Source of the DNA: Thermoproteus tenax Kra 1
GTDB lineage: Archaea; Thermoproteota; Thermoprotei; Thermoproteales; Thermoproteaceae
DNA length: 32,000 nucleotides
Direction of reading: 5' to 3'
Assembly: GCF_000253055.1 (NCBI RefSeq)
Contig: NC_016070.1
Location: 180,001-212,000 of the forward strand
Shown in pieces: positions 2,597 to 25,677 of this stretch (the first letter of the stretch is position 1; every line of letters begins with the position of its first letter). The notes beneath the pieces were generated by a model. That model searched no databases. It saw nothing but the letters and a program-made list of their open reading frames with translations, and was not told the origin of the DNA. A program made the position numbers and the translations under genes.

Positions 2597-2598
2597 CC

Positions 2599-2946: not shown

Positions 2947-2990
2947 GGGTCTCGAAGCCCCCGGAGAGGGCCAGGTGCCGTGAAGGGGGC

Positions 2991-7905: not shown

Positions 7906-7923
7906 AAACCTCGTAGCTCTCCA

Positions 7924-11975: not shown

Positions 11976-12374
11976 ATGGAGGTTCTATTCTTAATCTTAT
12001 CAATACTGGGGACGACCGCGATACTCATCACCAGGGACAACGTCCTCGCCGCTTTTTCTCTACTGGGTATAGGGATCGCCGTGGCGGGCTACGCAGCGGC
12101 CATGGGGTTGCCGGCGCTCTTCCTGTTGGTGGCCCTAGCCTATATCGCCTCGGCGTTAGTCCTTGTCATAGTCGCCGCCGCTGCCATTTCGGAGGACAAG
12201 GTTAAGACGAGGCTGACGCCGTACGCGGCGCTGCCACTCTTGCTTCTGTTTGCGTTGTTGCTCCCGGAGGGCCCCACCCTTAAGGCGGCTTTGCCGGACT
12301 CCCAAGTTCTCTACCCGTCGGCGGCCTTCATCCTCTTTATGTTGTTAATAGCAGTTGAGCTGGCCAGGAGATGA
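11976..12374 (+). CDS. nuoJ: Complex I-like subunit J (NuoJ/ND6-like)
   Basis: 132-aa hydrophobic protein starting at ATG 11976 (MEVLFLIL...). The C-terminus FMLLIAVELARR resembles the NuoJ terminus. It is ATGA-coupled to the nuoK-like gene. Confidence 0.6.
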   Translation: MEVLFLILSILGTTAILITRDNVLAAFSLLGIGIAVAGYAAAMGLPALFLLVALAYIASALVLVIVAAAAISEDKVKTRLTPYAALPLLLLFALLLPEGPTLKAALPDSQVLYPSAAFILFMLLIAVELARR

Positions 12375-12589
12375 CGCTCGCCCTCCTGCTCATAGCCCTC
12401 GGCTTGATAGTGATAATGGCGTCGAGAGATAGAATCAGGACGATAATAGGCGCCGAGCTGGCCGTGCTTGGGGCTATAGCGGCGGCCATAAGCTCGGGCG
12501 ATGCGAACATGGCGGCCGTCGCGTCGGCCGTGGGAGTCGCAGACACGCTCATGCTAGTGGCCGCCGCCTTCAAGCTGAGCCATGATTGA
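12371..12589 (+). CDS. nuoK: Complex I-like subunit K (NuoK/ND4L-like), short form
   Basis: 72 aa with 3 predicted TM helices. SRDRIRTIIGAELAVLGAI resembles the NuoK TM2 region with its conserved Glu. It has an ATGA overlap with nuoJ and an 8-nt overlap with the next gene. Confidence 0.6.
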   Translation: MTLALLLIALGLIVIMASRDRIRTIIGAELAVLGAIAAAISSGDANMAAVASAVGVADTLMLVAAAFKLSHD

Positions 12590-13823
12590 CGCGCTGATCT
12601 TCATAGGCGTAGTAGCACTGGCTTTATTGGGGCTTAGGCTGGGCCTGGCGCCCTCCCTGGCCTCAGTCGCTCTGTCGTTGCTCCTGTTGGGCAGAGAGAT
12701 CGACATACCGCCGTTGCCATATATCGGAGCCGCCAAGATGTACTTCGGCGGTCTCGCCGAGCCGTTTATAGCGACTACTGCCGCATTGGGCGTGTTAGTC
12801 CTCGTCTACTCTAGGGAGTACGCCAGACACCACGGATACGGGCCTTGGTTCTACGGCGTATTGGCTCTATACGTGATCTCTCTGGAGCTGATACCGGCGT
12901 TCGACAATCTGATATACGTCTTTATAGCGCTGGAGCTGGCCGTTATCACCAGCTTTATCTTGATCTATTATTTTGGGTACGGCGACAGGAGGAGGATAGG
13001 CCTTATGTACTTTATATGGTCCCAGATAGGCTCTATAGCCTTCCTAATAGGCGCCGCGCTGTCCGGGGCCTTCCTACCGCCCTACACCCTCGCCTTGCTT
13101 CCAGCCTCCTTGGCGGTGTTGGGCCTCCTCGTGAAGATGGGCACAGCCGGAGTGCACTTCTGGCTCCCCTACGCACACGCCGAGGCTCCAACCCCGCTCT
13201 CAGCTCTGCTGTCGCCGATCCACGTGGGGCTCATGTCGTATTGGCTCTACCTCCTCCTCCCCGCCACTCCTCTGCCGGCCCGCGACCTTGCCCTCTACGG
13301 GGCAGCAACCGCCATCTACGGCTCATTGCTCGTGTTCAGAGAGCTCGACCTAAAGAGGGCCCTCGCGGATTCCACGATAGCCAACATGGGCCTCCTGGTC
13401 GTGGCTGCAGCGCTGCGCGACTACAGCGCCGTCGTATTGTTGTTCGTTGGACACGCCCTGGCCAAGGCCGCCATGTTCATGGTGTCAGGCATAGGCATAA
13501 CCACTCAGAACGAGAGGAGGTTGGGCTATATGAAATTGGATAGATGGACCTTCGTGGGCTCGGCCTTGGGGCTAGTGGCCCTCGCCGGCGTTTTCGGGAT
13601 AACCCTCGTGGGCAAGGCCCTTCTGGCCGTGTCCTCGCCCAGCTCTCTGGCGCCCGCGCTCTATCTCGCTCTGTTTGCCACTGCGGTCTACAACTTCTAT
13701 ATCTTTGACAGACTGTACAGAGTGGGCAAGTCGGAGGTCGCCGCGCCGGTCTCCATGGCCGTGCCCATGATCTTGGCGTCAGCGCTTCCCTACGTCCTCT
13801 TGCTGGCGGCGCCATGGATATAG
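12582..13823 (+). CDS. nuoM: Complex I-like antiporter-type subunit (NuoM/ND4-like)
   Basis: 413-aa polytopic protein. Motif HFWLPYAHAEAPTPLSALLSP is typical of the Mrp/NuoLMN proton-conducting family. Confidence 0.7.
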   Translation: MIDALIFIGVVALALLGLRLGLAPSLASVALSLLLLGREIDIPPLPYIGAAKMYFGGLAEPFIATTAALGVLVLVYSREYARHHGYGPWFYGVLALYVISLELIPAFDNLIYVFIALELAVITSFILIYYFGYGDRRRIGLMYFIWSQIGSIAFLIGAALSGAFLPPYTLALLPASLAVLGLLVKMGTAGVHFWLPYAHAEAPTPLSALLSPIHVGLMSYWLYLLLPATPLPARDLALYGAATAIYGSLLVFRELDLKRALADSTIANMGLLVVAAALRDYSAVVLLFVGHALAKAAMFMVSGIGITTQNERRLGYMKLDRWTFVGSALGLVALAGVFGITLVGKALLAVSSPSSLAPALYLALFATAVYNFYIFDRLYRVGKSEVAAPVSMAVPMILASALPYVLLLAAPWI

Positions 13824-15379
13824 CCCCGATACTCCCCTTCGTCGGAGCCGCCGTAGACTCTTTAACTAAAAGGGGCGCCGGCGCAGTGGCCGTCGCCGCG
13901 ATTCTGACGGCTCTCTCGGGCCTGGGGAACAGTCTCCTGTTCCTCCTGAACTCCGTGTTTCTGCTCACTGCGCTGTACTCCCTCTGGTATGTCAGGGACG
14001 TGGAGAGGCCCGGCTGGTATTGGGCTTGGCTCGACGTCTTCTACGGCTCTATGTACTTGTTCTTGACTACAAACAACTGGTTGGCCCTTGTGGCCGCGTG
14101 GGGAGGCCTAGACGCGGCGAGCTGGGCCCTCATATTGACCTACCCCGAGGACAGGGATGTGGGAAGGGTGGGCTACGGAGGGGTCGGCAAATACGCCAAG
14201 TGGATCTGGACGCCCGCAGACTCCGCGATGAGGGCCATAGTGACTGTGGAGCTCGGCACAGCCGCTCTGGCTGTAGGCATGGCCCTCGGCGCATCGCTGT
14301 ATGGCCCCGACATCACCAGGTGGGGCCCGCTGCCGCCCACAGCCTCAGCGCTCATCTTGTTGGCCGCTTTCGTTAAAGCCGCCCAACTGCCCTTTACAGA
14401 CTGGCTCATGACCGCCATGTCTGCCCCGACTCCAGTATCGGCGTTGCTCCACAGCGCGACTATGGTCGCCGCAGGCCCCATACTCTTGATAAGGCTCGCC
14501 CCGGCACTGGCCTCCTATTGGCCCTATGCCCTCATCGTAGGCCTCGCCACGGCCATCTACGGAGGAGTGGTGGCTATATGGCAGAGGGAGCCCAAGGTGC
14601 TGCTCGCCTCATCCACCGCGTCCTATCTGGGCCTCGCTACAGCCTTCTCTCTGGCGAGCCCCGCCGCCGCGGCCGCCCTAATAATGATGCACGGCTTTGC
14701 CAAGGCCTCTCTGTTTATGGCTGTAGGAGAGTCGATACACCACGAGGGCACGAGGTTCCCCAAGTCTTACACTCTATTGGGCAAGGCTGCTATGGCGCTC
14801 GCTCTGGCGTCCCTCCTGGGCTTCCTCCCCTTAGGCGCTTACGCTAAATCCCAACTGCCGGAGTGGGAGACCGCCTTCTCCCTCTTGAGCGCGGGCTACA
14901 TAGGGATTCTACTCCTCCGCTCCCGCACTGAGGGCCTCGGAGGCCCTATGTCCGCGCTCGCCTTGATCTCAGCCGCCCTGGAGCTTCTACACGCCCCAAT
15001 CGCTCCCAGCCCCATCTGGCTTCTCGCTTTACTCGGGCTCTTGCTCTACATGAGGCCCCACGTAGGTCCCCTTGAGAGGAGGCTCTACCTCCCGGCACTC
15101 TTCTCGGCGGTTGGGAGAGGCCTCCTCGCGCTCGCCCTAGCGGTGGCCAGACTCGACTCCTTGATAGACAGAGGCCTCCTCGCATCGCCGCGCGGGTGGT
15201 ACAGGCTTGCGAGGGCAGTGGCAGCGTTGGACGGAGCGGCGGATAGCCTCCTCCACATGCGCTTCGTTGACGCCGTGAGGAGGATATCGACGTACTTCTC
15301 GAGCGTTGACGTCGAAGTGTACCTCTACGGCTTGGGCGCCGCCGCGCTCGCAGTATTCGTGGTGTTGGTAGTGATATGA
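13814..15379 (+). CDS. nuoL: Complex I-like antiporter-type subunit L (NuoL/ND5-like)
   Basis: LPFTDWLMTAMSAPTPVSALLHSATMVAAGPILLIRL is the classic NuoL motif. A C-terminal amphipathic stretch followed by a final TM helix (…YLYGLGAAALAVFVVLVVI) fits the lateral helix HL plus anchor. Confidence 0.8.
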   Translation: MDIAPILPFVGAAVDSLTKRGAGAVAVAAILTALSGLGNSLLFLLNSVFLLTALYSLWYVRDVERPGWYWAWLDVFYGSMYLFLTTNNWLALVAAWGGLDAASWALILTYPEDRDVGRVGYGGVGKYAKWIWTPADSAMRAIVTVELGTAALAVGMALGASLYGPDITRWGPLPPTASALILLAAFVKAAQLPFTDWLMTAMSAPTPVSALLHSATMVAAGPILLIRLAPALASYWPYALIVGLATAIYGGVVAIWQREPKVLLASSTASYLGLATAFSLASPAAAAALIMMHGFAKASLFMAVGESIHHEGTRFPKSYTLLGKAAMALALASLLGFLPLGAYAKSQLPEWETAFSLLSAGYIGILLLRSRTEGLGGPMSALALISAALELLHAPIAPSPIWLLALLGLLLYMRPHVGPLERRLYLPALFSAVGRGLLALALAVARLDSLIDRGLLASPRGWYRLARAVAALDGAADSLLHMRFVDAVRRISTYFSSVDVEVYLYGLGAAALAVFVVLVVI

Positions 15380-16476
15380 TCGGCCCGCTCCTCCCGACCT
15401 ATGTGTTTTTGCGTAGGGCGGCCAAATCTGGGGCACTGGCGCTGGCCTTGGACGTGGCCGTCTTCGCATACGCAGGCTACCTCTTGCTCTCAAGATCCCC
15501 TCTCTTGGTCGCGCTCGCGGCGCCCTACGTCATCGCCCCCCTCTTGGTGTCTCGGGGGCCCCTACGCGTCTACTCAGGCCTTGCCTCGGCGTTGGGCCTC
15601 CTCGGGGTCCTCCTCATGGCGCAGCCTCAGTTATACTATCAGGCCATAGGCTTCGCCATCGCCGTATCTTCGCCCGGCGCAGTCCTCGTCGCTACGCCGG
15701 ACAAGGGAAGCCTTGAGGGCCTCTTCAGATACTTCGTGGTTTCGACAGTCGCCAGCTCCCTCGTGGTGGCGGGCCTGTCGGGGGGCGGCCCGTTGGGCTC
15801 GGTGTTTGTGTTCTCGGGCATCGCGCTAGAGCTAGGGGCCTTTCCCGCCTTCTTCTGGGTACCCGACGTCTTCTCCAGAGCCTCGCCGGAGGGCTTAGTC
15901 TTGTTGTCCAGCTTGACCAAGTTGGGCGCAGCGCTCGCGTTGTCGCTTTTATCCTTCGACGTGCCTCCCTACGTTACAGTGCCCCTAGCCGCGGCCACCA
16001 TGTTGGTGGGCAACCTGGGGGCCACGACCAGCAGAGAGCCCGGCAGACTCCTCGGCTACGCCTCAGTCTACCACGCGGGTTTAGCTATAGCGGCCTACGC
16101 CTTGTATAAGCCTCTCGCCCCGTTCTTGATGTTCGCCGATGCAGTGGGCATGATGGGCTTGTTCTCCTACTTGGCCTCGCCAGGCCCCAAGTGGACTGCG
16201 TACGCGCTCGCCTTGAACCAAGTGGGAGTTCCGCCGTTGGTGGGCTTTTGGCCAAAGCTTGCGTTATTTGTGTTGGCCGCAAGGGCCAACCTCCCGCTGG
16301 CGATCTACGTTTTGGGCAACGTGGCCTGGTCAATAGTCTACTACGTCAGACTTGCGTCCTCCTTGGAGGGCGGCAGAAGGGCGCTGGCGGTGGCGCCATC
16401 TCTGTTTGCCTTGGCCTTAGGCTTGGCGGCGCCCCTCTGGCTTCTACCGCCGTTCTCTTTACTGTTGCACCATTAA
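15376..16476 (+). CDS. nuoN: Complex I-like antiporter-type subunit (NuoN/ND2-like), short
   Basis: 366-aa polytopic protein with FPAFFWVPDVFSRASPEGLVLLSSLTKLGA (NuoN-type motif). It has an ATGA overlap with nuoL. Confidence 0.65.
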   Translation: MIGPLLPTYVFLRRAAKSGALALALDVAVFAYAGYLLLSRSPLLVALAAPYVIAPLLVSRGPLRVYSGLASALGLLGVLLMAQPQLYYQAIGFAIAVSSPGAVLVATPDKGSLEGLFRYFVVSTVASSLVVAGLSGGGPLGSVFVFSGIALELGAFPAFFWVPDVFSRASPEGLVLLSSLTKLGAALALSLLSFDVPPYVTVPLAAATMLVGNLGATTSREPGRLLGYASVYHAGLAIAAYALYKPLAPFLMFADAVGMMGLFSYLASPGPKWTAYALALNQVGVPPLVGFWPKLALFVLAARANLPLAIYVLGNVAWSIVYYVRLASSLEGGRRALAVAPSLFALALGLAAPLWLLPPFSLLLHH

Positions 16477-16492
16477 AAATCATTATAATTTC

Positions 16493-16498
16493 TTTTTT
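16493..16498 (+). terminator. Oligo-T terminator after nuoN
   Basis: A T6 run lies 17 nt after the nuoN TAA stop (16474-16476) in an AT-rich spacer. Archaeal RNAP terminates at oligo-T tracts. Confidence 0.5.
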
Positions 16499-16542
16499 CA
16501 ACATAAAATATAGTCAAATTCTTCCTCAATAAATGAAAAAGG

Positions 16543-16552
16543 TTATTTATAG
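16543..16552 (+). promoter_or_regulatory. TATA box for the por-nuoIHABD operon (leaderless)
   Basis: TTATTTATAG is centred ~26 nt upstream of ATG 16573. Confidence 0.6.
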
Positions 16553-16572
16553 AATCCGACATAATATCTCAT

Positions 16573-17508
16573 ATGAGAATAGATACGGTGTGGATAGGGA
16601 GAGGGGGACAGGGGATAGTCACCGCCGTCTATATCGTGGCCCACGCCTCTATTGCTGACGGCTTTTACGCGTTGGCTAATCCAGAGTTTGGGGCAGAGAG
16701 GAGGGGGGCCCCAGTGAAGGCCTTTCTGAGGATATCCGACACGTTCGAGGACGCCCCGGAGCCCATAAAGACCCCCGATGTGGCCGTGATATTGGACGAT
16801 AAACTGATCGACCCCATGAGGGTAGTCATCGATGCCGTGAAGCCCGGGGGCTACGTCCTAGTCAGCTCCGGCAAAGACCCCGAGAAGGTGGCCGAGCTGA
16901 TCGGGAGAAAGGACGTGAACATAGCCGTAGTGGACGGGATAGGCATAGCCCTGAAACACGTGAAATTGGCGGTGCCCAACGGGCCTATGGTCGGCGTATT
17001 CGCAAGAGTTATGGGCTTCCCCAAGCTTCAGTCGATCAAGGAGGCGATAGAGTCCCAATTGGGCAAAGCCGTGGAGCAGAACTTCGCCGCGGCTGAGGAG
17101 GCCTACAAGACGGCGGTGATAATACCGGCCACTGAGCAGGGCACAGCCAAGGCCGCTGTGGAGATCCCCACGACCTCCGCCTTCTTGACCGGCGACTACG
17201 AGCTGGTGGGGTGGGACAAGATACCTGAGGGCGGTTTGACCTACCCGGGAAGCAGCCTGCGCTATAAGACCGGCTCTTGGCGTGTGGAGAAGCCCATCAT
17301 AGACCACTCCAAGTGTATCATGTGCAGAAAATGTTGGATGTTCTGTCCCGACGACGCCGTGCTGGAGGTATGGCGCGAGACCAAGCTGCCGAGCGGCAGA
17401 GTGGTCAGAGTAAAGGCCATAGACTTCAGCTACGAGTACTGCAAGGGCTGCGGCATATGTGCCGACGTGTGCCCCACTGGGGCAATACAGATGGTTAGAG
17501 AGATATGA
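16573..17508 (+). CDS. 2-oxoacid (pyruvate-type):ferredoxin oxidoreductase, fused gamma-delta subunit
   Basis: The N-terminal gamma domain has GRGGQGIVTA. The C-terminal delta domain has two 4Fe-4S motifs (CIMCRKCWMFCP and CKGCGICADVCP). 311 aa, roughly the sum of gamma (~185) and delta (~105). Confidence 0.85.
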   Translation: MRIDTVWIGRGGQGIVTAVYIVAHASIADGFYALANPEFGAERRGAPVKAFLRISDTFEDAPEPIKTPDVAVILDDKLIDPMRVVIDAVKPGGYVLVSSGKDPEKVAELIGRKDVNIAVVDGIGIALKHVKLAVPNGPMVGVFARVMGFPKLQSIKEAIESQLGKAVEQNFAAAEEAYKTAVIIPATEQGTAKAAVEIPTTSAFLTGDYELVGWDKIPEGGLTYPGSSLRYKTGSWRVEKPIIDHSKCIMCRKCWMFCPDDAVLEVWRETKLPSGRVVRVKAIDFSYEYCKGCGICADVCPTGAIQMVREI

Positions 17509-18701
17509 CCGCCGTAGCCCAACTGGAGGCCGCTAGGGTGAAGCAGAGGAGGATTGCTCTGACTGGAAACCACGCAGTGGCATTGGCGGCCAAGATGGCC
17601 AAGGTGGAGGTGATCGCCGCATACCCTATAACTCCCCAGACGCCCGCGGTGGAGAGGTTGGCCGAGTTCGTGAACAATGGGGAGTTGGACGCCGAGTATA
17701 TACCGGTCGAGGGCGAGCACTCGGCCCTCTCGGCCGTGTTGGGCGCTTCGGCGGCCGGAGCAAGAGTGTTCACGGCCACTAGCAGCCAGGGGCTGGGCTT
17801 CATGTACGAGATATTGCCCATAGCAGTAGGATTGAGGCTGCCCATAGTGATGGGGATAGCCACTAGGGCTTACTCGGCCCCTATCAACGTGTGGGGCGAC
17901 TACAGCGACGTCATGTCCATGAGGGAGCTGGGCTGGATAATCTACATGGTGTCCAATGTGCAAGAGGCCTTCGACACGACGATACAGGCCTACAGAGTCG
18001 GCGAGGACTCCTCAGTGCATCTGCCCGTGGTCGTCGCCTACGACGGCTTCTGGATAAGCCACGTGCTCCAGCCTCTGGACGTTCCTGAGGACGAGGAGGC
18101 AGTGATAAAGTATGCGCCAATTACGAGGACTTGGAAAAAGCTGGATGTGGACAACCCGGCCTCTCTAGGCGCCGTGGGCACGCCCGAGTGGTACTTCGAG
18201 ATCAGATATGCGGCGTACAAGGCGCTGGAGGAGTCGATAAAGGTCGTTGAACAGGCAGACATAGAGTACGGCAAAATGTTCGGCAGAAGCTACGGCTTCG
18301 GGTCGACCTATAGGCTGGAGGATGCAGACGTAGCCATTGTCACATACGGCTCGATCTACGGCTTGGCCAAGATGGCCGCGGATGCGCTGAGGCAACAGGG
18401 AATAAGGGCAGGCGCCATGAAGCTCAGACTTCTGAGGCCGTGGCCCACCGACTTCATTAAACGGAGCTTGGAGGGAGTAGAGAAGGTATTCGTCGTAGAC
18501 AGGGCCTTCAACCACGGCGGCTTGGTCGGACCAGTCGCCACAGAGGTTGCGGCCACTCTCGCCAGGCCGGTCTACAACGCCTACGCCACAATAGGGATGA
18601 GGGCCACCGACTCTAGGGCTATAGCGGCAGCCGCAGAGAGAGTGGCGAAGGGGGAGGTACAGCCCATGAGGCCGTTCAATATAGGTCTGAGGGGGCCATG
18701 A
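17505..18701 (+). CDS. porA: 2-oxoacid:ferredoxin oxidoreductase alpha subunit
   Basis: GNHAVALAAKMAKVEVIAAYPITPQT is the N-terminal signature. 398 aa, with ATGA overlaps on both sides. Confidence 0.9.
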   Translation: MTAVAQLEAARVKQRRIALTGNHAVALAAKMAKVEVIAAYPITPQTPAVERLAEFVNNGELDAEYIPVEGEHSALSAVLGASAAGARVFTATSSQGLGFMYEILPIAVGLRLPIVMGIATRAYSAPINVWGDYSDVMSMRELGWIIYMVSNVQEAFDTTIQAYRVGEDSSVHLPVVVAYDGFWISHVLQPLDVPEDEEAVIKYAPITRTWKKLDVDNPASLGAVGTPEWYFEIRYAAYKALEESIKVVEQADIEYGKMFGRSYGFGSTYRLEDADVAIVTYGSIYGLAKMAADALRQQGIRAGAMKLRLLRPWPTDFIKRSLEGVEKVFVVDRAFNHGGLVGPVATEVAATLARPVYNAYATIGMRATDSRAIAAAAERVAKGEVQPMRPFNIGLRGP

Positions 18702-19720
18702 GCTTCAAAATAAACGTCAGAGGGCTGCAGCTGCCTGGAGCGGGGAGAGGCGGCGCCCTGGAGGCGTTATACGAGTTTGAGAGCTTCGATCTGCCGGAGC
18801 AAGAGCTCTTCATGCCGGGGCACGGCCTCTGCGGAGGCTGTACTATACCCGTAATAACTAGGCACATGTTGAAGGTGTTGGGGCCCGACACGATCGTGGT
18901 GAACCCCACTGGATGCCTCGAGGTGTCCACAGTGACTTATCCGCGCACTAACTGGGCTGTGCCGTGGATACACGTGGCGTTCGGCAACGGCGGCTCCGTG
19001 GCCTCGGGCATAGAGGCGGCCATAAAGGTTCTAAAGAGGCGCGGCGTCATAGATCCCAACAGAAAGATAAACGTCGTGGTAGTGGCGGGCGACGGCGCAA
19101 CGGCAGATATAGGGTTCCAAGCGCTCAGCGGCATGTTGGAGAGGGGCCACAGAGTGATCTACGTGATGTACGACAACGAAGGCTACATGAACACGGGCAT
19201 ACAGAGGAGCGGCACAACTCCCCTCTTTGCCTCAGCCACGACCTCGCCGGCCGGCAAAAAGATACCGGGCAATCTGACGCACAAGAAGCCCATGGCGTTT
19301 ATAGCGGCCGCCCACGGGATACCCTACTCGGCCACTGCCAACCCAGCCTATTTAGCCGACATGATACAGAAGTTCAAAAAGGCCGCCGAAGTTGATGGGC
19401 CATCGTTCTTACACATAATACAGTCGTGCACGCCTGGCTGGCGCTTCGAGCCCAAGTACGGCATCAGAGTGATGGAGCTCGCCACAGAGACAGGCTTCTG
19501 GGTCAACTACGAGATAGAGAACGGCGTATTCAGAATAACGACTCCGGTGCCCAAGAGGAAGCCCATTGAGTGCTTCTTGAAGCTGCAAGGCCGGTTCAGA
19601 CATCTGACCAAGGAGCATATAGCGATACTACAGAAGGTGATAGACGAGGACGTCAAAAGGTTGAACGAGATGGCGGGCGGAGAATTCATCGGCCCAGTGG
19701 ACCCGGAGGCAAAATGTTAG
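18698..19720 (+). CDS. porB: 2-oxoacid:ferredoxin oxidoreductase beta (TPP-binding) subunit
   Basis: CGGC near the N-terminus and the TPP motif GDGATADIGFQALSGMLERGHRVIYVMYDNEGYMNTG. 340 aa. Confidence 0.9.
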   Translation: MSFKINVRGLQLPGAGRGGALEALYEFESFDLPEQELFMPGHGLCGGCTIPVITRHMLKVLGPDTIVVNPTGCLEVSTVTYPRTNWAVPWIHVAFGNGGSVASGIEAAIKVLKRRGVIDPNRKINVVVVAGDGATADIGFQALSGMLERGHRVIYVMYDNEGYMNTGIQRSGTTPLFASATTSPAGKKIPGNLTHKKPMAFIAAAHGIPYSATANPAYLADMIQKFKKAAEVDGPSFLHIIQSCTPGWRFEPKYGIRVMELATETGFWVNYEIENGVFRITTPVPKRKPIECFLKLQGRFRHLTKEHIAILQKVIDEDVKRLNEMAGGEFIGPVDPEAKC

Positions 19721-20109
19721 AGCACATAAGGCTCTTCGCCGTTGCCATCAAGAACGTTGTCAGAGGCCCCATAACTATCGACTATCCAAGAGAGGCGAGG
19801 GACTACGGCGGAAGGCTGAGGGGCTATATCGTCAACGACCTCTCCAAATGTATCAGCTGCGGCATGTGCGAGGCGGTGTGTCCGGCCAAGGCCGTCAAGT
19901 TCAGTGTGGGGCCCGACGGGAAGAGGTACCCTGGCATTGACTACGGGAGGTGTATTTTCTGCGGATACTGCGTAGACGCTTGTCCCACCGGCAGCCTCCA
20001 ACACACAACGTGGCACGAGGTCGTGTGGCCCGACTTGAACACGTTCGCCAAATACGCCGTGGGGGGCCCAGACCCCAAGGACCACAGACCAAGGAGGGCG
20101 TTGGTATGA
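19714..20109 (+). CDS. nuoI: Complex I-like subunit I (NuoI, 2x[4Fe-4S] ferredoxin-type)
   Basis: Start ATG 19714 (MLEHIRLF...) overlaps the porB stop within ATGTTAG. Two motifs, CISCGMCEAVCP and CIFCGYCVDACP. 131 aa. Confidence 0.85.
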   Translation: MLEHIRLFAVAIKNVVRGPITIDYPREARDYGGRLRGYIVNDLSKCISCGMCEAVCPAKAVKFSVGPDGKRYPGIDYGRCIFCGYCVDACPTGSLQHTTWHEVVWPDLNTFAKYAVGGPDPKDHRPRRALV

Positions 20110-21056
20110 GCGAGCTAGCAGCGGCCGTAGTATACCCGGGCCTCATCGCCATGGGCCTCTACTTGGTCCTGGCTGTGTGGGCCGAGAGGAAGCTCGCCGC
20201 GAAGGTCCAATGGAGGTACGGGCCGCTCTACGTCTCTAGGAGGTTGGGCGGAGTTCTGCAGACTGTCGCGGATATGTTGAAGCTAATTTTCAGCGAGCTG
20301 GTCATCCCCTCCTACACCAACAGGGCGCTCTTCGTGGCTCTGCCGGTGGCCGTCTTTACGGCTGAGGCGCTGCCGCTCTTGTTCATACCGGGCGCGCCCG
20401 GCCTAGTGATAGTGCCCTCCCACTACGGTCTCGCCTACATACTAGTGATCTTGCTCTTGGCGACGCCTGCTATAGTCGCCATGGCGTGGGTCGAGGCGGA
20501 CAAGTTCACCTATATAGGGGCTCTGCGCGAGATCTTGATCGAGGTGGCGTTCGAGGTGCCGTTGGTGATATCTCTGTTGGCCATGGTCATGTTGTACGGC
20601 CCCGACCCGGAGGGGGCGGTCTCGGCCCAACGGCTGCCCGGCATCGTGCTCAACCCGGCCGCGTTCTTCGCATTCTTCATCTCGGCCGCCATGTCCACCA
20701 GCAGATTCCCCTTCGAGATCCCCGACGCCGATACGGAGATCGTCTTCGGGCCCTACACTGAGTACGGCTCCACTCTGCTCCTCCTCTCCTACGGCGCCAA
20801 CTACGTGGGGCTCTACTCCTTCTCTCTATTGGGCGCTCTGTTGTTCTTGGGCGGCTGGGCGCCGTTCACGGGGCTCCTCGGAGCGCTATTTATGTACTTT
20901 AAGGCATTTCTATTGACTCTTGCCTGGCTCTTCCTCAGAGCTGTCTATCCTCGCCTCAGAATAGATCAAGCGCTCAAAATAGGCTGGACGACGCTCCTCT
21001 GGATATCCGTATTATCTCTGCTCATTTCGGCGGCTTGGAGGGTATGGCTTGGCTGA
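20106..21056 (+). CDS. nuoH: Complex I-like subunit H (NuoH/ND1)
   Basis: ATG 20106 forms an ATGA overlap with the nuoI stop. AERKLAAKVQWRYGP is the NuoH N-terminal signature. The protein is polytopic, 316 aa. Confidence 0.9.
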   Translation: MSELAAAVVYPGLIAMGLYLVLAVWAERKLAAKVQWRYGPLYVSRRLGGVLQTVADMLKLIFSELVIPSYTNRALFVALPVAVFTAEALPLLFIPGAPGLVIVPSHYGLAYILVILLLATPAIVAMAWVEADKFTYIGALREILIEVAFEVPLVISLLAMVMLYGPDPEGAVSAQRLPGIVLNPAAFFAFFISAAMSTSRFPFEIPDADTEIVFGPYTEYGSTLLLLSYGANYVGLYSFSLLGALLFLGGWAPFTGLLGALFMYFKAFLLTLAWLFLRAVYPRLRIDQALKIGWTTLLWISVLSLLISAAWRVWLG

Positions 21057-21361
21057 TCTTCCTCCTTCTGTTGATAGCGGGCGTCGCTGCCATGTTGATA
21101 GTGCCCGCGCTCTTTGCGCCGGCCAAAGGAGAGCAGGCAAAAGACGTGAGGTTCGAGGCTGGCAATCCTCCCTTCGGGAGAGTAAGGAGGAGGATGGCCA
21201 TGCAGTACCTCGCCTACGTCTATCTTGCGGTTGCTATCGAGGCAGTGGCCGGCCTGGCGTTCGTCTACTACTTGCTGACGTCCAACGTACTGGACATCGT
21301 AGTGGCCATCCTCGCCTCAGCGGCGACGGCCTACTTTATAGTGAGGGAGCATGGCAGGTAG
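21044..21361 (+). CDS. nuoA: Complex I-like subunit A (NuoA/ND3)
   Basis: About 105 aa and 3 TM helices, with the loop motif RFEAGNPPFG (equivalent to the YECG loop region). Start is ATG 21044 (or TTG 21035) and overlaps the nuoH end. Confidence 0.7.
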   Translation: MAWLIFLLLLIAGVAAMLIVPALFAPAKGEQAKDVRFEAGNPPFGRVRRRMAMQYLAYVYLAVAIEAVAGLAFVYYLLTSNVLDIVVAILASAATAYFIVREHGR

Positions 21362-21782
21362 AATCGTCAGAGATCTAACAAGGCTGGCGGCATCCTGGGG
21401 CACACGTTGGTCCCTCTGGCCTCCGCACATAGTGACGGCGTGCTGCGGCGTAGAGCTGGCCCACGCGTTCGGCCCGGCGTACGATGCAGAGAGGCTGGGG
21501 GTCCTACCGATGCCCTCGGCGAGGCACAGCAATTTGTTGATAATAGAGGGCACTATAACTATGAAGATGGCGAAATTCGTCAAATGGGTCTACGAGCAGA
21601 TGCCTGAGCCCAAGTTCGTGATAGCCATGGGGGCTTGCGCCATCAAGGGAGGAGTGTTCTATGGGAGCTACCACATGGTGCCCGCATCCAATGTAGTAAA
21701 AGTGGACTACTACGTCTCCGGCTGTCCGCCGACGCCCGAGGCCCTGTTGAGGTCTATACAAAAAGTACAGGAGAAACTATGA
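21351..21782 (+). CDS. nuoB: Complex I-like subunit B (NuoB/PSST, N2 cluster)
   Basis: Cys ligand pattern CCGVE, GACAIKGG and SGCPPTPE. 143 aa, with an 11-nt overlap with nuoA. Confidence 0.9.
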   Translation: MAGRIVRDLTRLAASWGTRWSLWPPHIVTACCGVELAHAFGPAYDAERLGVLPMPSARHSNLLIIEGTITMKMAKFVKWVYEQMPEPKFVIAMGACAIKGGVFYGSYHMVPASNVVKVDYYVSGCPPTPEALLRSIQKVQEKL

Positions 21783-22999
21783 TGGAGTGGCCCTTCGACA
21801 AAAGGCCGGGCTCCACTTTCTTCATAGAGAGGGAGGAGGAAATAGCGCCGGGCGAGAAAGGGCTTGCGCTTGTTGTAGGGCCTCAACATCCGGGCTCGGG
21901 CCACATGAGGCTCTTCGTCATAGTCGACGGCGATATAATTGTGGACGTCAGGCCGGACCCCGGCTTCGTGCACAGAGGCATAGAGAAGCTCGCCGAGAGG
22001 AGGCCCTTCTGGGTCGTGCCGCCGCTCATAGAAAAGGCCTCTATCATGGACAGCACAAACGTGATTCTGCCGTACGTACACGCAGTAGAGAAGGCGCTGG
22101 GGCTCGTGCCTCCTCCAAGAGCCAGATTCCTCCGCTCCATTATGTCGGAGCTGAACAGAATTAGAACGCACCTCTACGACTTGGCTCTACACGGTATATT
22201 CATAGGACACTCTACGGCCTTCATGTGGGGGTTCGGCATGGGCGACCTAATAGCTGAGGTTCAAGCCAAGGTGACGGGGGCGAGGACTACGTCGGCCTAC
22301 CCAATACCTGGGGGCGTGAGGAGGGATCTGTCCACAGACGATAGACAGACCATCTTGAGGCTGTTGGAGAAGCTCAGAGGGAGGCTGCCAGACTACGAGA
22401 AGATATTCCTAAAGAACCCTCTGGTCAAGATGAGGCTTGAGGGCGTGGGGGTCCTCGAGGCCAAGAGGGCGGCGGAGCTGGGGGCCGTTGGCCCGTCGGC
22501 CAGAGGATCCGGCCTCTTCCACGACACGCGCGCCGACGCCCCCTACGATGCATACGTCGATATCAAGCCCCGCGTAGTAGTCGAGAAGGGAGGCGACGCC
22601 TGGGCGAGGACGTTGGTAAGATGGGGGGAGATCTGGGCCTCGATAGAGTTCATAGAGGAGGCCATTAAGGCTCTGCCCGAGGGCGATATCATTGACGAGG
22701 GCCTTTTGGCCCTCGCGCCCAACTACAGAAGGGAGGGCAGCGTGACCGGCATCCTAGGGGTGTTGACTCAACTGAGGCCGGCGCGCGGCGAATATTCGTC
22801 TGTCGTCGAAATGTCCAGAGGCGCCTCCCTTGTGCAGATATATGCCACAGAGAGCGCCTATCTCAGGAGGGTCAGATTCGTTACGCCGAGCTGGCGCAAT
22901 TTAAAGCCCATGGTAGAGGCCATGAAGGGCTATAGGCTCGCCGATCTGCCTGCGATCTATATGAGCTTCGGCTATTTTCCGCCGGAGGCCGACAGATAG
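21779..22999 (+). CDS. nuoD: Complex I-like subunit D (NuoD/49-kDa), Cys-free
   Basis: ATG 21779 forms an ATGA overlap with the nuoB stop. Motifs GPQHPGSGHMRLF, FVHRGIEKL and a C-terminus ...FGYFPPEADR. No cysteine occurs anywhere in the 406-aa product, so there are no [NiFe] ligands. Confidence 0.85.
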   Translation: MMEWPFDKRPGSTFFIEREEEIAPGEKGLALVVGPQHPGSGHMRLFVIVDGDIIVDVRPDPGFVHRGIEKLAERRPFWVVPPLIEKASIMDSTNVILPYVHAVEKALGLVPPPRARFLRSIMSELNRIRTHLYDLALHGIFIGHSTAFMWGFGMGDLIAEVQAKVTGARTTSAYPIPGGVRRDLSTDDRQTILRLLEKLRGRLPDYEKIFLKNPLVKMRLEGVGVLEAKRAAELGAVGPSARGSGLFHDTRADAPYDAYVDIKPRVVVEKGGDAWARTLVRWGEIWASIEFIEEAIKALPEGDIIDEGLLALAPNYRREGSVTGILGVLTQLRPARGEYSSVVEMSRGASLVQIYATESAYLRRVRFVTPSWRNLKPMVEAMKGYRLADLPAIYMSFGYFPPEADR

Positions 23000-23054
23000 C
23001 CCGTCTGCCCGCGGCGTGAGGCCGCAAGTTTTTAATAGCTTAGTTTGTTGAGAC

Positions 23055-24515: not shown

Positions 24516-25677
24516 GGTAGCGCCTGAGCTGTTGAGTTATCAAGAAGTTGCGCCTCACGTGCTCTCTGCCTGCGGCGCCCATCTCCCTCCTCAGTCTCTT
24601 GTTCTTCAGCAGGTAGACAATATAGTGGGCCGCCGCCTTGGGGGAGTCCACGAGGAAGCCAGTGACTCCGTGTATCACTTGGATTCTGATGCCTCCAGTG
24701 TTGCCTCCTATGACCGGCCTCCTCTTCCACAGAGCCTCGCTGACAGTGAGCCCGAACCCCTCTCTTATCGACTTCTGTAAAACTACGGCGGCGGCCCTCT
24801 GGAAGGCGTTGACCTCTATGTGGCTGTTGGGCGGCAACATCAACAAGTGTATGTCTTTATCGTCTCCGGCCGCCCTAAGGGCCTCTCTATAGACTTCCTC
24901 CCCCTCTGGGTCGTCCGAGGCGGGGCTGCCTAGGTAGACCAGCTGTACGTCTACATGCCGGCGGGCCAACTTGTAGGCCTCAATGACTCCAACAGGGTCC
25001 TTCGCTCTATCGAACCGAGATACTTGGAGCACTATAGGGCGCTCTGGATCAACGCCGTATTTCCTCACTATTCTGTCCACAGTGGCTCTGGGCAGAGGCA
25101 CGTTCTTGGGGCTCAGAGGGTCTATCGAGGGCGGTATAGATATCTGGGGCACATCTAGATCGTCTCTGGCAAACTCTGGTATCGAGACTATTACTCCATC
25201 GTAGGCCGATATATACCTCTTGAGGAAGGCCCAGACCTCGGGGTGGGGGTTGCTGATGTCGATATGGCATCGCCAGATCCAGACCCCCCTCCTTTTATAT
25301 CTAATGAGGCCAGCTGGCTGCGGATCGTGTATGAACACTACGTCGTAGTCCAGAGGGATCTCGCCGGCGTTGATCTCCTGCCATCTGTCGTATATCTCGA
25401 AGTACTCCCTGGGTATCGAGCCGGCGCCTGTCTGAAGCGCGTTGTGAAACGACTTGGTGACTCTGAAGAACTCCTCGTTCCCCCTTATCACTTTCCACTC
25501 TACGTTGAGCCCCAGCTCCCTCATCAGAGGGATCAATCTGTGGAGTATCTCGGCGACTCCGCCGCCGGCCGCCGTAGAGTTGATGTGTAGGATCGACAGA
25601 TCCCTCAGCCTTTCGGCGTATTTAAATATGGCGTTCAGCTCATGCTCGCCTATAAATTCGACGTAACGCTCTATCAT
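24472..25677 (-). CDS. treT: Trehalose glycosyltransferring synthase TreT (GT4 family)
   Basis: The N-terminal region ...ILHINSTAAGGGVAEILHRLIPLMRELGLNVEWKVIRGNEEFFRVTKSFHNALQ closely resembles the characterised archaeal TreT signature (VNSTSFGGGVAEILHSLVPLL...FFNVTKTFHNALQG). The GT-B C-terminal half has EGFGLTVSEA. Confidence 0.85.
   Translation of the reverse strand: MIERYVEFIGEHELNAIFKYAERLRDLSILHINSTAAGGGVAEILHRLIPLMRELGLNVEWKVIRGNEEFFRVTKSFHNALQTGAGSIPREYFEIYDRWQEINAGEIPLDYDVVFIHDPQPAGLIRYKRRGVWIWRCHIDISNPHPEVWAFLKRYISAYDGVIVSIPEFARDDLDVPQISIPPSIDPLSPKNVPLPRATVDRIVRKYGVDPERPIVLQVSRFDRAKDPVGVIEAYKLARRHVDVQLVYLGSPASDDPEGEEVYREALRAAGDDKDIHLLMLPPNSHIEVNAFQRAAAVVLQKSIREGFGLTVSEALWKRRPVIGGNTGGIRIQVIHGVTGFLVDSPKAAAHYIVYLLKNKRLRREMGAAGREHVRRNFLITQQLRRYLMTILYLTGRHSAP

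What the first reader, a model, noticed from the sequence alone, without database searches (positions are those of the whole stretch)
16573..22999. A 2-oxoacid:ferredoxin oxidoreductase is encoded inside a complex I-like operon (porGD-porA-porB-nuoI-H-A-B-D), a candidate dedicated electron-input module
Seen in the sequence:
- Eight + strand genes run without any spacer.
- Every junction overlaps: ATGA at 17505-17508 and 18698-18701, ATGTTAG at 19714-19720 (porB stop / nuoI start), ATGA at 20106-20109, a 13-nt overlap at 21044-21056, an 11-nt overlap at 21351-21361, and ATGA at 21779-21782.
- The only promoter-like element is the TATA at 16543-16552. It is preceded by a T6 terminator after nuoN.

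Established knowledge: archaeal 11-subunit complex I-like enzymes lack the NADH-oxidising NuoEFG module, and their physiological donor is generally unresolved. Ferredoxin has been proposed or shown for Fpo-like enzymes lacking FpoF and for cyanobacterial NDH-1.

Inference: POR is co-translated with the Q-module and connecting subunits (NuoI/B/D/H/A). It may dock on them as the input module, with the fused gamma-delta 2x[4Fe-4S] domain acting as the wire. That would give a proton-pumping 2-oxoacid (pyruvate):quinone oxidoreductase, or at least a stoichiometrically coupled Fd-producing/Fd-consuming pair. I do not know of a biochemically characterised example.
Basis: partly seen in the sequence, partly recalled or inferred. 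Interest (0 to 1): 0.82.

Follow-up and report, generated by a model that had tools for sequence, protein, structure and literature searches.

The report
Oxoacid oxidoreductase genes heading complex-I operon
In Thermoproteus tenax, the genes for a pyruvate-type 2-oxoacid:ferredoxin oxidoreductase are fused into one operon with half of a complex I-like proton pump; this real, conserved arrangement was already described in the 2011 genome paper with the same hypothesis, which has never been tested biochemically.

Summary

The window is Thermoproteus tenax Kra1 (PorGD 100% identical). The locus is TTX_0208-0215. Siebers et al. 2011 (PMC3189178) already called this arrangement "unprecedented". They asked whether the oxidoreductase replaces the input module of complex I and funnels electrons into the quinone pool. 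The finding is therefore already known, though still untested. I found no follow-up paper.

What I add:
- The cluster is conserved in 11 Thermoproteus and Pyrobaculum loci.
- The porB/nuoI overlap is invariant. Other junctions in Pyrobaculum open into 90-120-nt AT-rich spacers.
- nuoJKMLN is a separate upstream unit; in one contig a 3.9-kb insertion splits it from por.
- NuoC is missing from the cluster, and NuoB and NuoD are fused in some species.
- The closest relatives of both POR and Nuo outside this clade are not linked.

Best reading: a co-expressed pair in which the oxidoreductase supplies low-potential electrons at NuoI to a quinone-reducing proton pump, most likely through ferredoxin. 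Stable docking remains possible (about 0.25-0.3) and cannot be tested with these tools.

The parts
11976..12374 (+). nuoJ-like membrane subunit. The ORF opens at 11898; the likely start is 11976, behind the TATA-like ATATTTAAAA at 11945-54.
   Evidence: The Pfam Oxidored_q3 match is weak (E=0.24). Position and tblastn similarity match the first gene of the cluster in other loci. AT-rich promoter-like region.
12371..12589 (+). nuoK-like subunit (72 aa)
   Evidence: Pfam Oxidored_q2 E=8e-4, below the curated cutoff. A 78-aa gene sits in the same position in Pyrobaculum loci.
12582..13823 (+). antiporter-like subunit (NuoM type, 413 aa)
   Evidence: Pfam Proton_antipo_M 1.1e-25
13814..15379 (+). 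antiporter-like subunit (NuoL type, 521 aa, with a long C-terminal amphipathic helix plus a terminal TM segment)
   Evidence: Pfam Proton_antipo_M 2.5e-24; sequence
15376..16476 (+). antiporter-like subunit (NuoN type, 366 aa); last gene of the upstream unit
   Evidence: Pfam Proton_antipo_M 1.9e-8
16477..16572 (+). 96-nt AT-rich spacer and operon boundary. It holds the palindrome ATTATAAT (16482-89), a T6 run (16493-98) and a BRE/TATA-like AAAAAGGTTATTTATAG (16536-52) ending 21 nt before the porGD ATG.
   Evidence: The spacer is 81-96 nt in 9 loci and its first ~60 nt are conserved among Thermoproteus. A 3.9-kb insertion sits at this position in L019.
16573..17508 (+). porGD: fused gamma (CoA-binding) and delta (2x[4Fe-4S]) subunit of a POR/VOR-family 2-oxoacid:ferredoxin oxidoreductase
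   Evidence: Pfam POR 1.5e-33 plus Fer4 dicluster. TIGR02175 PorC_KorC and TIGR02179 PorD_KorD both score above their cutoffs. 100% identical to the T. tenax protein.
17505..18701 (+). porA: alpha subunit (YPITP motif present)
   Evidence: Pfam POR_N 9e-68 and PFOR_II. The closest solved chain is 9bt4_B, a four-subunit PFOR alpha.
18698..19720 (+). porB: beta subunit (TPP-binding GDG...N motif and 4 Cys for the proximal cluster). It carries clade-specific N-terminal (~20-30 aa) and C-terminal (GPVDPxxxC) extensions.
   Evidence: Pfam TPP_enzyme_C. NF008819 PorB scores 382.6 bits against a cutoff of 405. Alignment.
19714..20109 (+). nuoI: 2x[4Fe-4S] subunit with the NuoI-type N-terminal segment (GPITIDYP). 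Its start overlaps the porB stop by 7 nt.
   Evidence: NuoI models are the best NCBIfam hits. PDB matches to MbsN, NdhI and TYKY start at residues 3-12. The junction overlap is conserved in 11 loci.
20106..21056 (+). nuoH: membrane subunit that forms the quinone channel
   Evidence: Pfam NADHdh 1e-70; NF004741 scores 313 bits, above its cutoff of 305
21044..21361 (+). nuoA
   Evidence: Pfam Oxidored_q4 6.5e-6
21351..21782 (+). nuoB: carrier of cluster N2 (CCGVE, GACA and GCPP cysteines all present)
   Evidence: Pfam Oxidored_q6 7.5e-29; NF005012 and TIGR01957 score above their cutoffs; sequence
21779..22999 (+). nuoD: 49-kDa-type subunit without [NiFe] cysteine motifs, so not a hydrogenase large subunit
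   Evidence: Pfam Complex1_49kDa 3.7e-61. NF004739 scores 341.6 bits against a cutoff of 360. Best PDB matches are Nqo4 (2fug_4) and MbsL (6u8y_L).
23011..23033 (+). GC hairpin (GCGGC-GTGAG-GCCGC) followed by a T5 run (23029-33): the likely end of the transcript

Best explanation
The locus encodes one functional unit made of two enzymes. The first is a dedicated POR/VOR-family 2-oxoacid:ferredoxin oxidoreductase (PorGD-PorA-PorB). The second is a complex I-like, quinone-reducing proton pump that lacks NuoEFG and NuoC (NuoI, H, A, B, D here, plus NuoJ, K, M, L, N from the operon just upstream).

The por genes are the promoter-proximal genes of the operon that also makes the electron-entry subunit NuoI and the rest of the Q module.

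Proposed mechanism:
1. The oxidoreductase oxidises pyruvate, or a related 2-oxoacid, to acyl-CoA plus CO2 (E0' about -500 mV).
2. The electrons leave through the two [4Fe-4S] clusters of the delta domain.
3. They enter the NuoI clusters, pass to N2 in NuoB, and reduce menaquinone at the NuoD/NuoH pocket.
4. Quinone reduction drives proton translocation by the three antiporter-like subunits.

I consider transfer by one of the organism's soluble ferredoxins, or by transient contact, more likely than a stable POR-Nuo supercomplex. The system is probably reversible. In the autotrophic members it could use the proton motive force and quinol to supply low-potential electrons for pyruvate synthesis.

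Shown: gene identities, cofactor motifs, operon layout and conservation. Inferred: substrate, direction, acceptor, and the route between POR and NuoI.
For: - Gene identities and cofactor motifs.
- Every junction from porGD to nuoD overlaps.
- The same order, JKMLN | porGD-A-B-nuoI-H-A-B-D, occurs in T. tenax, four Thermoproteus MAG species, P. ferrireducens, P. neutrophilum, a P. arsenaticum-type contig, P. islandicum and two metagenome contigs. Identity to T. tenax falls as low as 41-46% for NuoN and 60-62% for NuoD.
- porB/nuoI overlaps by 1-7 nt in all 11 loci. In contrast, nuoI|nuoH opens to 92-93 nt in two Pyrobaculum loci and nuoA|nuoB to 90-120 nt in four.
- The closest outside relatives are unlinked. 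Ignisphaera POR (PorB about 62%) stands alone with separate porG and porD genes. About 20 other POR loci at 30-45% identity have no nuo genes within 10 kb. The nearest NuoBD clusters (52%) have no POR.
- There is no NuoE/F/G or FpoF gene in the window.
- T. tenax has at least six ferredoxin genes and several OFORs (PMC3189178).
- The redox span from pyruvate (-500 mV) to menaquinone (-74 mV) is taken from the table in PMC9304861.
- From established knowledge: Fpo lacking FpoF, cyanobacterial NDH-1, Mbh and MBS all accept ferredoxin at the NuoI-type subunit.
Against: - No expression, localisation or activity data exist for this locus in the searched literature.
- Substrate specificity is open: the PorA and PorB scores fall below the NCBIfam pyruvate-synthase equivalog cutoffs.
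- NuoC, a core subunit of all characterised complex I enzymes, is not encoded here. The complex may therefore be incomplete, may borrow NuoC from the other nuo set, or may be built differently.
- Gene adjacency, however well conserved, does not prove electron transfer between the two enzymes.
- The invariance of the por-nuoI coupling fits a tighter physical association at least as well as a ferredoxin shuttle.
Confidence: 0.55

Rival explanations
1. Stable docking. PorGD-PorA-PorB binds the NuoI/NuoB/NuoD surface as the true input module, taking the place of NuoEFG. The fused gamma-delta subunit acts as the wire, giving a proton-pumping 2-oxoacid:quinone oxidoreductase with no free ferredoxin. 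2011.
For: - por-nuoI translational coupling is invariant in 11 loci while other junctions loosen.
- The linked clade has features that stand-alone PORs lack: a gamma-delta fusion with a conserved TTSAFLTG linker, a PorB N-terminal extension of 20-30 aa, and a C-terminal GPVDPxxxC tail.
- The linked NuoI lacks the C-terminal tail seen in the nearest unlinked NuoI proteins.
- NuoC is absent and there are no other input genes.
- From established knowledge: in formate hydrogenlyase, CODH-Ech and Fpo, an input dehydrogenase encoded with the complex is physically docked.
Against: - From established knowledge: characterised OFORs are soluble and reduce free ferredoxin. Docked systems use a dedicated adaptor polyferredoxin (HycB, CooF), and none is encoded here.
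- The gamma-delta fusion and its linker also occur in a sister POR whose upstream neighbours are not nuo genes, and in unrelated bacterial and archaeal PORs.
- In Pyrobaculum, probable internal promoters separate nuoH-A and nuoB-D from por-nuoI. Stoichiometric co-translation with the whole Q module is therefore not conserved.
Confidence: 0.27
2. The main role is the reverse direction. The complex uses the proton motive force to push electrons from quinol (produced by the membrane-bound uptake hydrogenase) up to ferredoxin or POR. This drives pyruvate synthase in the dicarboxylate/4-hydroxybutyrate cycle during growth on H2 and sulfur.
For: - T. tenax and P. neutrophilum are autotrophs that need ferredoxin-dependent pyruvate synthase. 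T. tenax has only one hydrogenase, which is membrane-bound and quinone-linked (PMC3189178; PMC12794621).
- From established knowledge: Ehb hydrogenase supplies anabolic POR in Methanococcus, and reverse-running complex I has been proposed for nitrite oxidisers.
Against: - The cluster is also present in P. arsenaticum, which was recently shown to be an obligate heterotroph (PMC12794621). An autotrophy-only role therefore cannot explain its conservation.
- I could not obtain expression data comparing autotrophic and heterotrophic growth; the Ramos-Vera papers are not held.
Confidence: 0.1
3. There is no functional link. A POR operon landed in the nuo cluster in the Thermoproteaceae ancestor and has been kept by operon inertia, and the two enzymes work independently.
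For: - Overlapping start and stop codons are common in this compact genome (90.6% coding; PMC3189178).
- Synteny inside one family is weak evidence of function.
Against: - The porB/nuoI overlap survives in 11 loci. Over the same divergence, neighbouring junctions acquire 90-120-nt spacers, nuoB and nuoD fuse in some lineages, a 3.9-kb element inserts next to por, and flanking genes change completely.
- The gene that por stays attached to is the predicted electron-entry subunit.
Confidence: 0.08

Closest known systems
The same locus as published: fqo/oor cluster TTX_0203-0215 of Thermoproteus tenax Kra1 (Siebers et al. 2011, PLoS One 6:e24222, PMC3189178)
   Same: It is the identical sequence (PorGD 100% identical). 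The neighbouring hypDCF and hypA genes match the paper's TTX_0192-0199. The paper makes the same observation: three oor genes in the middle of a second complex I gene set that lacks FqoF and one other fqo gene. It poses the same two alternatives, a soluble OOR or replacement of the substrate-oxidising module.
   Different: The paper gives no comparative or junction analysis and no experimental test. The new points here are conservation across Thermoproteus and Pyrobaculum, the invariant por-nuoI coupling, the operon boundary at nuoN|porGD, and the unlinked sister clusters.
F420H2 dehydrogenase Fpo/Fqo and its FpoF-less, ferredoxin-dependent form (Methanosarcina, Archaeoglobus, Methanothrix)
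   Same: An archaeal complex I-like core without NuoEFG and with a small NuoI. FpoD, FpoH and FpoI models hit NuoD, NuoH and NuoI. From established knowledge: the FpoF-less enzyme is thought to take ferredoxin directly.
   Different: The NuoD, NuoH and NuoI models score higher than the Fpo models. There is no FpoF, FpoO or NuoC/FpoC gene in the cluster, and an OFOR is encoded in the operon.
Ferredoxin-dependent complex I relatives: cyanobacterial NDH-1, and Pyrococcus Mbh and MBS (PDB 6hum, 6cfw, 6u8y)
   Same: NuoB, NuoD, NuoH and NuoI homologues accept low-potential electrons at the NuoI-type subunit. MbsL and MbsN are among the best solved matches. From established knowledge: in Pyrococcus the ferredoxin comes from a soluble POR.
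   Different: The membrane arm here is complex I-type (NuoA, J, K and three antiporter-like subunits), not Mrp-type. NuoD has no NiFe ligands. There are no NdhS/V/O-type ferredoxin-docking subunits. POR is co-operonic here, whereas the POR of Pyrococcus is soluble and separate (from established knowledge).
Complex I-like enzymes with a docked input dehydrogenase encoded in the same operon: E. coli formate hydrogenlyase (PDB 7z0s) and CODH-Ech (Coo)
   Same: The genes for a soluble dehydrogenase sit in the operon of a NuoB/D/H/I-type membrane module. HycE and HycF are detectable homologues of NuoD and NuoI.
   Different: Those enzymes reduce protons, not quinone. From established knowledge, they use an adaptor polyferredoxin (HycB, CooF). 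No adaptor is encoded here and docking is unproven.
Por-Bfu (POR plus BfuABC/NuoEFG-like bifurcating module; Schut et al. 2022, PMC9304861) and the engineered PFOR/Fd-Hyd-3 'pyruvate hydrogenlyase' (Lamont et al. 2017, PMC5817251)
   Same: POR subunits are linked, by operon or by design, to modules related to complex I. A natural example turned up here in a WOR-3 bacterium: porGD-A-B followed by NuoE-, NuoF- and NuoG-like genes (L011).
   Different: Por-Bfu couples POR to the soluble, NADH-side module homologues, not to the quinone and proton-pumping modules. The Hyd-3 system is synthetic and needs a ferredoxin fused to the hydrogenase.

Membership tests
2-oxoacid:ferredoxin oxidoreductase, four-domain POR/VOR type | Gamma (CoA-binding) domain PF01558 and a delta domain with two CxxCxxCxxxCP motifs | tested here: met
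   Pfam POR 1.5e-33 and Fer4 dicluster. TIGR02175 scores 153.6 bits (cutoff 81.1) and TIGR02179 scores 99.4 (cutoff 60.05). Both Cys motifs are visible in the sequence.
2-oxoacid:ferredoxin oxidoreductase, four-domain POR/VOR type | Alpha subunit with POR_N and PFOR_II domains and the YPITP motif | tested here: met
   POR_N 9e-68 and PFOR_II 5.8e-21. AYPITPQT is present in the sequence. The best solved match is PFOR alpha, 9bt4_B.
2-oxoacid:ferredoxin oxidoreductase, four-domain POR/VOR type | Beta subunit with the TPP/Mg motif GDG(X)nN and four Cys for the proximal [4Fe-4S] cluster | tested here: met
   TPP_enzyme_C 1.8e-22. AGDGATADIG...YDNEGYMNTG is present, along with Cys in GHGLCGGC, PTGC and QSCTPGW.
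Pyruvate synthase (PorABCD equivalogs, pyruvate-specific) | Score above the NCBIfam equivalog cutoffs for PorA, PorB, PorC and PorD | tested here: not met
   PorA_Arch scores 385 against 550, PorB NF008819 scores 382.6 against 405, PorC 131.5 against 270, and PorD_Arch 94 against 120. Pyruvate-type models are the best hits, but VOR and oxalate-OR models score close behind, so the substrate remains open.
Complex I-like (Nuo/Fqo-type) quinone-reducing core | NuoB with the four N2 cysteines, NuoI with two [4Fe-4S] motifs, and NuoD lacking NiFe cysteines | tested here: met
   NuoB has CCGVE, GACA and GCPP. NuoD has IEKASIMDS and FGYFPPEADR where hydrogenases carry their Cys motifs.
Complex I-like (Nuo/Fqo-type) quinone-reducing core | Membrane arm: NuoH, A, J, K and three antiporter-like subunits | tested here: met
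   NuoH is strong and NuoA passes. There are three Proton_antipo_M proteins. NuoJ and NuoK are only weak matches (E=0.24 and 8e-4), supported by position.
Complex I-like (Nuo/Fqo-type) quinone-reducing core | NuoC (30-kDa) subunit present | tested here: not met
   There is no Complex1_30kDa hit in any window ORF that I scanned. P. neutrophilum NuoC finds nothing in the window by tblastn. nuoB and nuoD overlap, or are fused in relatives. A nuoC gene exists elsewhere in these genomes (PMC3189178).
Complex I-like (Nuo/Fqo-type) quinone-reducing core | Canonical quinone-headgroup ligands of NuoD (T. thermophilus Nqo4 His38 and Tyr87) | tested here: inconclusive
   The His is present but shifted by one residue (GSGHM). 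Tyr87 aligns with Ile. The same holds for all archaeal NuoD proteins compared, including Sulfolobales and Korarchaeota. It is therefore a family-wide trait, not a peculiarity of this locus.
NADH- or F420H2-dependent enzyme (NuoEFG or FpoF input module) | Input-module genes in or next to the cluster | tested here: not met
   None is in the 32-kb window. The paper places NuoE/F/G candidates elsewhere in the genome and reports no FqoF.
Docked dehydrogenase / complex I-like supercomplex (formate hydrogenlyase and CODH-Ech type) | Stable physical association of the dehydrogenase with the NuoI-type subunit, with cluster-to-cluster distance of 14 A or less | not testable with these tools
   No multimer prediction is available. 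Structure prediction returns no coordinates or PAE and accepts only single natural sequences. Only indirect evidence exists.

The most novel reading that the evidence does not exclude
POR is a stably bound input module of an NuoEFG-less, NuoC-less complex I. That would make a proton-pumping 2-oxoacid:menaquinone oxidoreductase that bypasses free ferredoxin. In the autotrophic Thermoproteaceae, the same machine would run backwards as a pyruvate synthase driven by the proton motive force and quinol. The clade-specific PorB extensions and the fused gamma-delta subunit would be the docking elements.
Probability: 0.25. Interest if true: 0.8.

Novelty: already known. Interest (0 to 1): 0.45.

Why it matters
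The physiological electron donor of archaeal complex I-like enzymes that lack NuoEFG is still largely unresolved. Sulfur respirers such as Thermoproteus gain very little from NADH, so a ferredoxin- or 2-oxoacid-driven coupling site would account for most of their energy conservation.

This locus is one of the few places where the genome itself names a candidate donor. A membrane-bound, proton-pumping 2-oxoacid:quinone oxidoreductase would be a new respiratory enzyme class. If reversible, it would offer a new answer to how H2/S0 autotrophs with only a quinone-linked hydrogenase obtain reduced ferredoxin.

The locus and the idea have been in the literature since 2011. The present value is a sharper and cheaper test: the invariant por-nuoI unit, the 11 loci, and the choice of culturable Pyrobaculum species. 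It is not a discovery.

Tried and rejected
1. **Bacterial promoter/terminator scan.** The sigma-70-type model does not apply to an archaeon. I replaced it with direct scans for AT-rich boxes and T-runs.

2. **A non-quinone acceptor.** I considered that NuoD Tyr87->Ile, together with near-equal similarity to P. furiosus MbsL, might point to an MBS-like polysulfide acceptor. I rejected this as a locus-specific clue because every archaeal NuoD compared has the same substitution. The membrane arm is also complex I-type.

3. **The gamma-delta fusion as a signature of nuo linkage.** Rejected. The fusion and its linker occur in a sister POR with non-nuo upstream neighbours and in many unrelated lineages.

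4. **Genome-contig scan with NuoD.** It returned only 5 loci because the peptide patterns were exact.

5. **Metagenome scan with a PorGD alignment.** It used generic motifs and added only two linked loci.

6. **Downstream context of the sister POR.** Both contigs end inside porA, so it is unresolved whether nuoI follows there.

7. **Papers on autotrophic regulation in T. neutrophilus.** PMC2698501 and 10.1128/JB.00729-10 are not held, so no expression evidence was obtained.

8. **Rfam scan of the window.** No hits.

9. **Absence of T5 runs in the operon.** Not significant on its own.

10. **Interface modelling.** I did not attempt structure prediction of a POR-NuoI interface.

Full report
**Observation**

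- ORF listing and translation give eight + strand genes: 16573-17508, 17505-18701, 18698-19720, 19714-20109, 20106-21056, 21044-21361, 21351-21782 and 21779-22999.
- Every junction is an overlap of 4, 4, 7, 4, 13, 11 and 4 nt, with the quoted sequences.
- Pfam and NCBIfam identify the genes as follows:
  - a fused gamma-delta subunit (PF01558 plus a 2x[4Fe-4S] domain);
  - the alpha subunit (POR_N, PFOR_II);
  - the beta subunit (TPP_enzyme_C) of a POR/VOR-family 2-oxoacid:ferredoxin oxidoreductase;
  - NuoI, NuoH, NuoA, NuoB and NuoD.
- NuoB keeps the N2 cysteines. NuoD has no [NiFe] cysteine motifs, so it is not a hydrogenase subunit.
- Upstream lie nuoJ-like, nuoK-like and three antiporter-like genes (11976-16476).
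- A 96-nt AT-rich spacer follows. It holds a T6 run (16493-98) and TTATTTATAG (16543-52), which ends 21 nt before the porGD ATG.
- After nuoD come a GC hairpin and a T5 run (23011-33).

1. The cluster has ten complex I subunits, not eleven. No NuoC is encoded in the window.
2. The por genes head a second transcription unit. They do not sit inside a single operon.
3. The TATA at 16543 is not the only promoter-like motif. The absence of T5 runs inside the operon is not significant on its own.

**Identity of the window and prior knowledge**

- PorGD is 100% identical to the Thermoproteus tenax protein on a 1,841,542-bp contig.
- The upstream hypD, hypC, hypF, nikR and hypA genes match the TTX_0192-0199 genes of the published genome.
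- The locus is therefore TTX_0203-0215.

Siebers et al. 2011 (PMC3189178) describe it explicitly. They report a second complex I gene set, "fqo/oor", with three 2-oxoacid oxidoreductase genes (TTX_0208-0210) in the middle, and call it an "unprecedented observation". [quoted passage not shown]

Searches by locus tag, organism and concept found no later paper that tests or extends it.

**Conservation**

The order nuoJ-K-M-L-N | porGD-porA-porB-nuoI-nuoH-nuoA-nuoB-nuoD recurs in:

- four Thermoproteus MAG species (L004-L007);
- P. ferrireducens (L001);
- P. neutrophilum (L010);
- a P. arsenaticum-type contig (L014);
- P. islandicum (L015);
- two hot-spring metagenome contigs (L018, L019).

PorGD orthologues (64% identity or more) also exist in T. 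uzoniensis, P. calidifontis and assemblies labelled P. aerophilum. Divergence is substantial: NuoN is 41-46% and NuoD 60-62% identical between T. tenax and Pyrobaculum.

A junction table shows:

| Junction | Spacing across loci |
|---|---|
| porGD/porA, porA/porB | overlap in every locus |
| porB/nuoI | overlap of 1-7 nt in all 11 loci |
| nuoN\|porGD | 81-96 nt in nine loci; 3.9-kb insertion in L019 |
| nuoI\|nuoH | opens to 92-93 nt in two Pyrobaculum loci |
| nuoA\|nuoB | opens to 90-120 nt in four Pyrobaculum loci |

The Pyrobaculum spacers are AT-rich and contain TATA-like boxes. Internal promoters are reported to be usual in Pyrobaculum operons (PMC3388794). In L019, the nuoN|porGD spacer holds a 3.9-kb insertion with a 509-aa ATPase and other ORFs, while por stays joined to nuoI.

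The unit that selection keeps intact is therefore porGD-porA-porB-nuoI: the oxidoreductase plus the predicted electron-entry subunit.

**Outgroups**

- The closest PorB relatives outside the clade (Ignisphaera, 62-65%) belong to stand-alone porG-porD-porA-porB operons.
- About twenty further POR loci at 30-45% identity have no nuo gene within 10 kb.
- The closest NuoD relatives outside the clade (52%, NuoB-NuoD fused) sit in clusters without POR. One, in a MAG next to CODH/ACS genes, reads nuoC-nuoH-(nuoI)-nuoA-nuoBD-nuoJ-K-M-L-N.
- A Desulfurococcales MAG has a POR-free nuo cluster in the order nuoA-B-D-H-I-M-L-N, with a NuoC-like hit between nuoB and nuoD.
- A sister fused PorGD (55%) has non-nuo genes upstream. 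Its downstream side is cut by contig ends.

The linkage therefore arose in the Thermoproteus/Pyrobaculum lineage. It goes together with loss of nuoC from the cluster. In several species nuoB and nuoD are fused outright.

**Features of the linked proteins**

- PorB of the linked clade has an N-terminal extension of 20-30 residues, a C-terminal GPVDPxxxC tail, and Gly in place of Glu in the conserved HVAFEN motif.
- PorGD has a conserved TTSAFLTG linker, which the sister POR shares.
- The linked NuoI lacks the C-terminal tail of its nearest unlinked relatives.

These could be docking adaptations, but nothing here tests that.

- Substrate specificity is open. Pyruvate-synthase models are the best hits but score below their equivalog cutoffs, with VOR and oxalate-oxidoreductase models close behind. 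The closest solved structure is a four-subunit PFOR.
- NuoD aligns Ile where T. thermophilus Nqo4 has the quinone-binding Tyr87. All archaeal NuoD proteins compared do the same, so I draw no locus-specific conclusion from it.

**Mechanism**

The best-supported reading is a functional unit.

1. The oxidoreductase generates electrons at about -500 mV.
2. They enter at NuoI, pass through N2 of NuoB, and reduce menaquinone (-74 mV; potentials from PMC9304861).
3. This powers the three antiporter-like subunits.

Such a site would be the main energy-conserving step for a sulfur respirer.

I cannot decide whether the link is a soluble ferredoxin or a stable complex. In favour of a ferredoxin shuttle:

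- T. tenax has at least six ferredoxin genes.
- Known OFORs are soluble (from established knowledge).
- Known ferredoxin-dependent relatives (NDH-1, FpoF-less Fpo, Mbh, MBS) accept free ferredoxin at the NuoI-type subunit (from established knowledge).
- No adaptor polyferredoxin is encoded here.
- The Q-module genes are probably transcribed separately in Pyrobaculum.

My weightings are:

| Reading | Weight |
|---|---|
| Ferredoxin shuttle | about 0.55 |
| Stable docking | about 0.27 |
| Primarily reverse (anabolic) role | about 0.1 |
| Meaningless adjacency | under 0.1 |

The reverse role is attractive for the H2/S0 autotrophs. It cannot be the whole story, because the cluster is also present in P. 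arsenaticum, now shown to be an obligate heterotroph.

**Comparison and verdict**

The closest known thing is the locus itself, as published. In kind, it resembles three groups:

- FpoF-less Fpo/Fqo and other ferredoxin-dependent complex I relatives;
- formate hydrogenlyase and CODH-Ech, in having the input dehydrogenase in the operon;
- Por-Bfu, in wiring POR to complex I-related modules. One natural example surfaced in a WOR-3 bacterium.

It fails one membership feature of canonical complex I (NuoC), and it lacks NuoEFG and FpoF.

The finding is real, correctly read and biologically meaningful. It is already in the literature with the same interpretation, and it remains untested. I rate novelty as "already known" and interest as moderate (0.45). 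The value lies in a long-standing question that this locus makes testable, now with a sharper target: the invariant por-nuoI unit, and several culturable hosts.

Noticed in passing
window 1310-9065: A hydrogenase-maturation and nickel neighbourhood lies a few kb upstream of a complex I-like cluster whose NuoD has no NiFe ligands. It comprises hypD (1310-2596), hypC (2599-2946), hypF (2796-5243), an ABC/CbiM-type Ni/Co transporter on the minus strand (5240-7400), NikR (7502-7894), HypA (7924-8334) and an Mrp/NUBPL-type P-loop ATPase (8262-9065). It matches TTX_0192-0199 of the published genome.
   Followed up: partly
window 16477-16540; L004-L006 same position: The first ~60 nt after the nuoN stop are strongly conserved among Thermoproteus species whose proteins are only 65-87% identical. 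The block includes the perfect palindrome ATTATAAT (16482-89), the T-run, and AACATAAAATATAGT. This is more conservation than a bare terminator or promoter needs, so it may be a regulator binding site. Rfam finds nothing there.
   Followed up: partly
L019 6100-10000: In one Pyrobaculum-like metagenome contig, a 3.9-kb insertion sits exactly in the nuoN|porGD spacer. It carries a 509-aa AAA-type ATPase and several small ORFs on both strands, and looks like a mobile or defence island.
   Followed up: partly
L010 16734-18716; L015 11226-15406; L014 14755-15024; L001 14532-14786: Pyrobaculum loci carry a conserved 89-91-aa ORF directly after nuoD. It has no Pfam family and is absent from T. tenax. 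P. neutrophilum and P. islandicum also have a second nuoB plus a nuoC gene on the opposite strand a few kb downstream; this is the only NuoC seen near the cluster.
   Followed up: partly
L004 9527-11212; L006 9518-11212; proteins P0308, P0309, P0324, P0332, P0414: NuoB and NuoD are fused into one polypeptide of about 560 aa, with no NuoC between them. The fusion occurs in T. uzoniensis, two Thermoproteus MAGs, a Pyrobaculum cluster and more distant archaea. It is the reverse of the well-known NuoC-NuoD fusion.
   Followed up: partly
window 18698-19720 (PorB residues ~105-112 and the C-terminus): All nuo-linked PorB proteins read HVAFGNGG where stand-alone PORs read HVAFENA(A/S/T), so a conserved Glu is lost. 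All end in a conserved Cys within a short C-terminal extension (GPVDPxxxC). The functional meaning is unknown.
   Followed up: no
L011 8001-14034: A WOR-3 bacterial contig has porGD-porA-porB followed directly by NuoE-like, NuoF-like and NuoG-like genes. This matches the proposed but uncharacterised 'Por-Bfu' bifurcating enzymes of Schut et al. 2022.
   Followed up: partly
L008 2301-2657: In the Desulfurococcales MAG, the only NuoC-like tblastn hit between nuoB and nuoD is on the opposite strand. It may be an inversion, an assembly artefact or a spurious frame.
   Followed up: no
window 9055-10257 (-) and 29238-30332 (-): Two long ORFs (400 and 364 aa) have no Pfam family at E<=1e-3. The first abuts the 2-isopropylmalate/homocitrate synthase-like gene (10269-11873) that precedes the nuo cluster.
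   Followed up: no
window 24472-26324 (-): A trehalose synthase TreT-type glycosyltransferase is followed by a DUF5752 protein, downstream of an MFS transporter (23055-24515). The MFS gene is the neighbour of nuoD in T. tenax. In two related Thermoproteus MAGs it lies 3-4 kb further away, so the downstream flank is not conserved.
   Followed up: no
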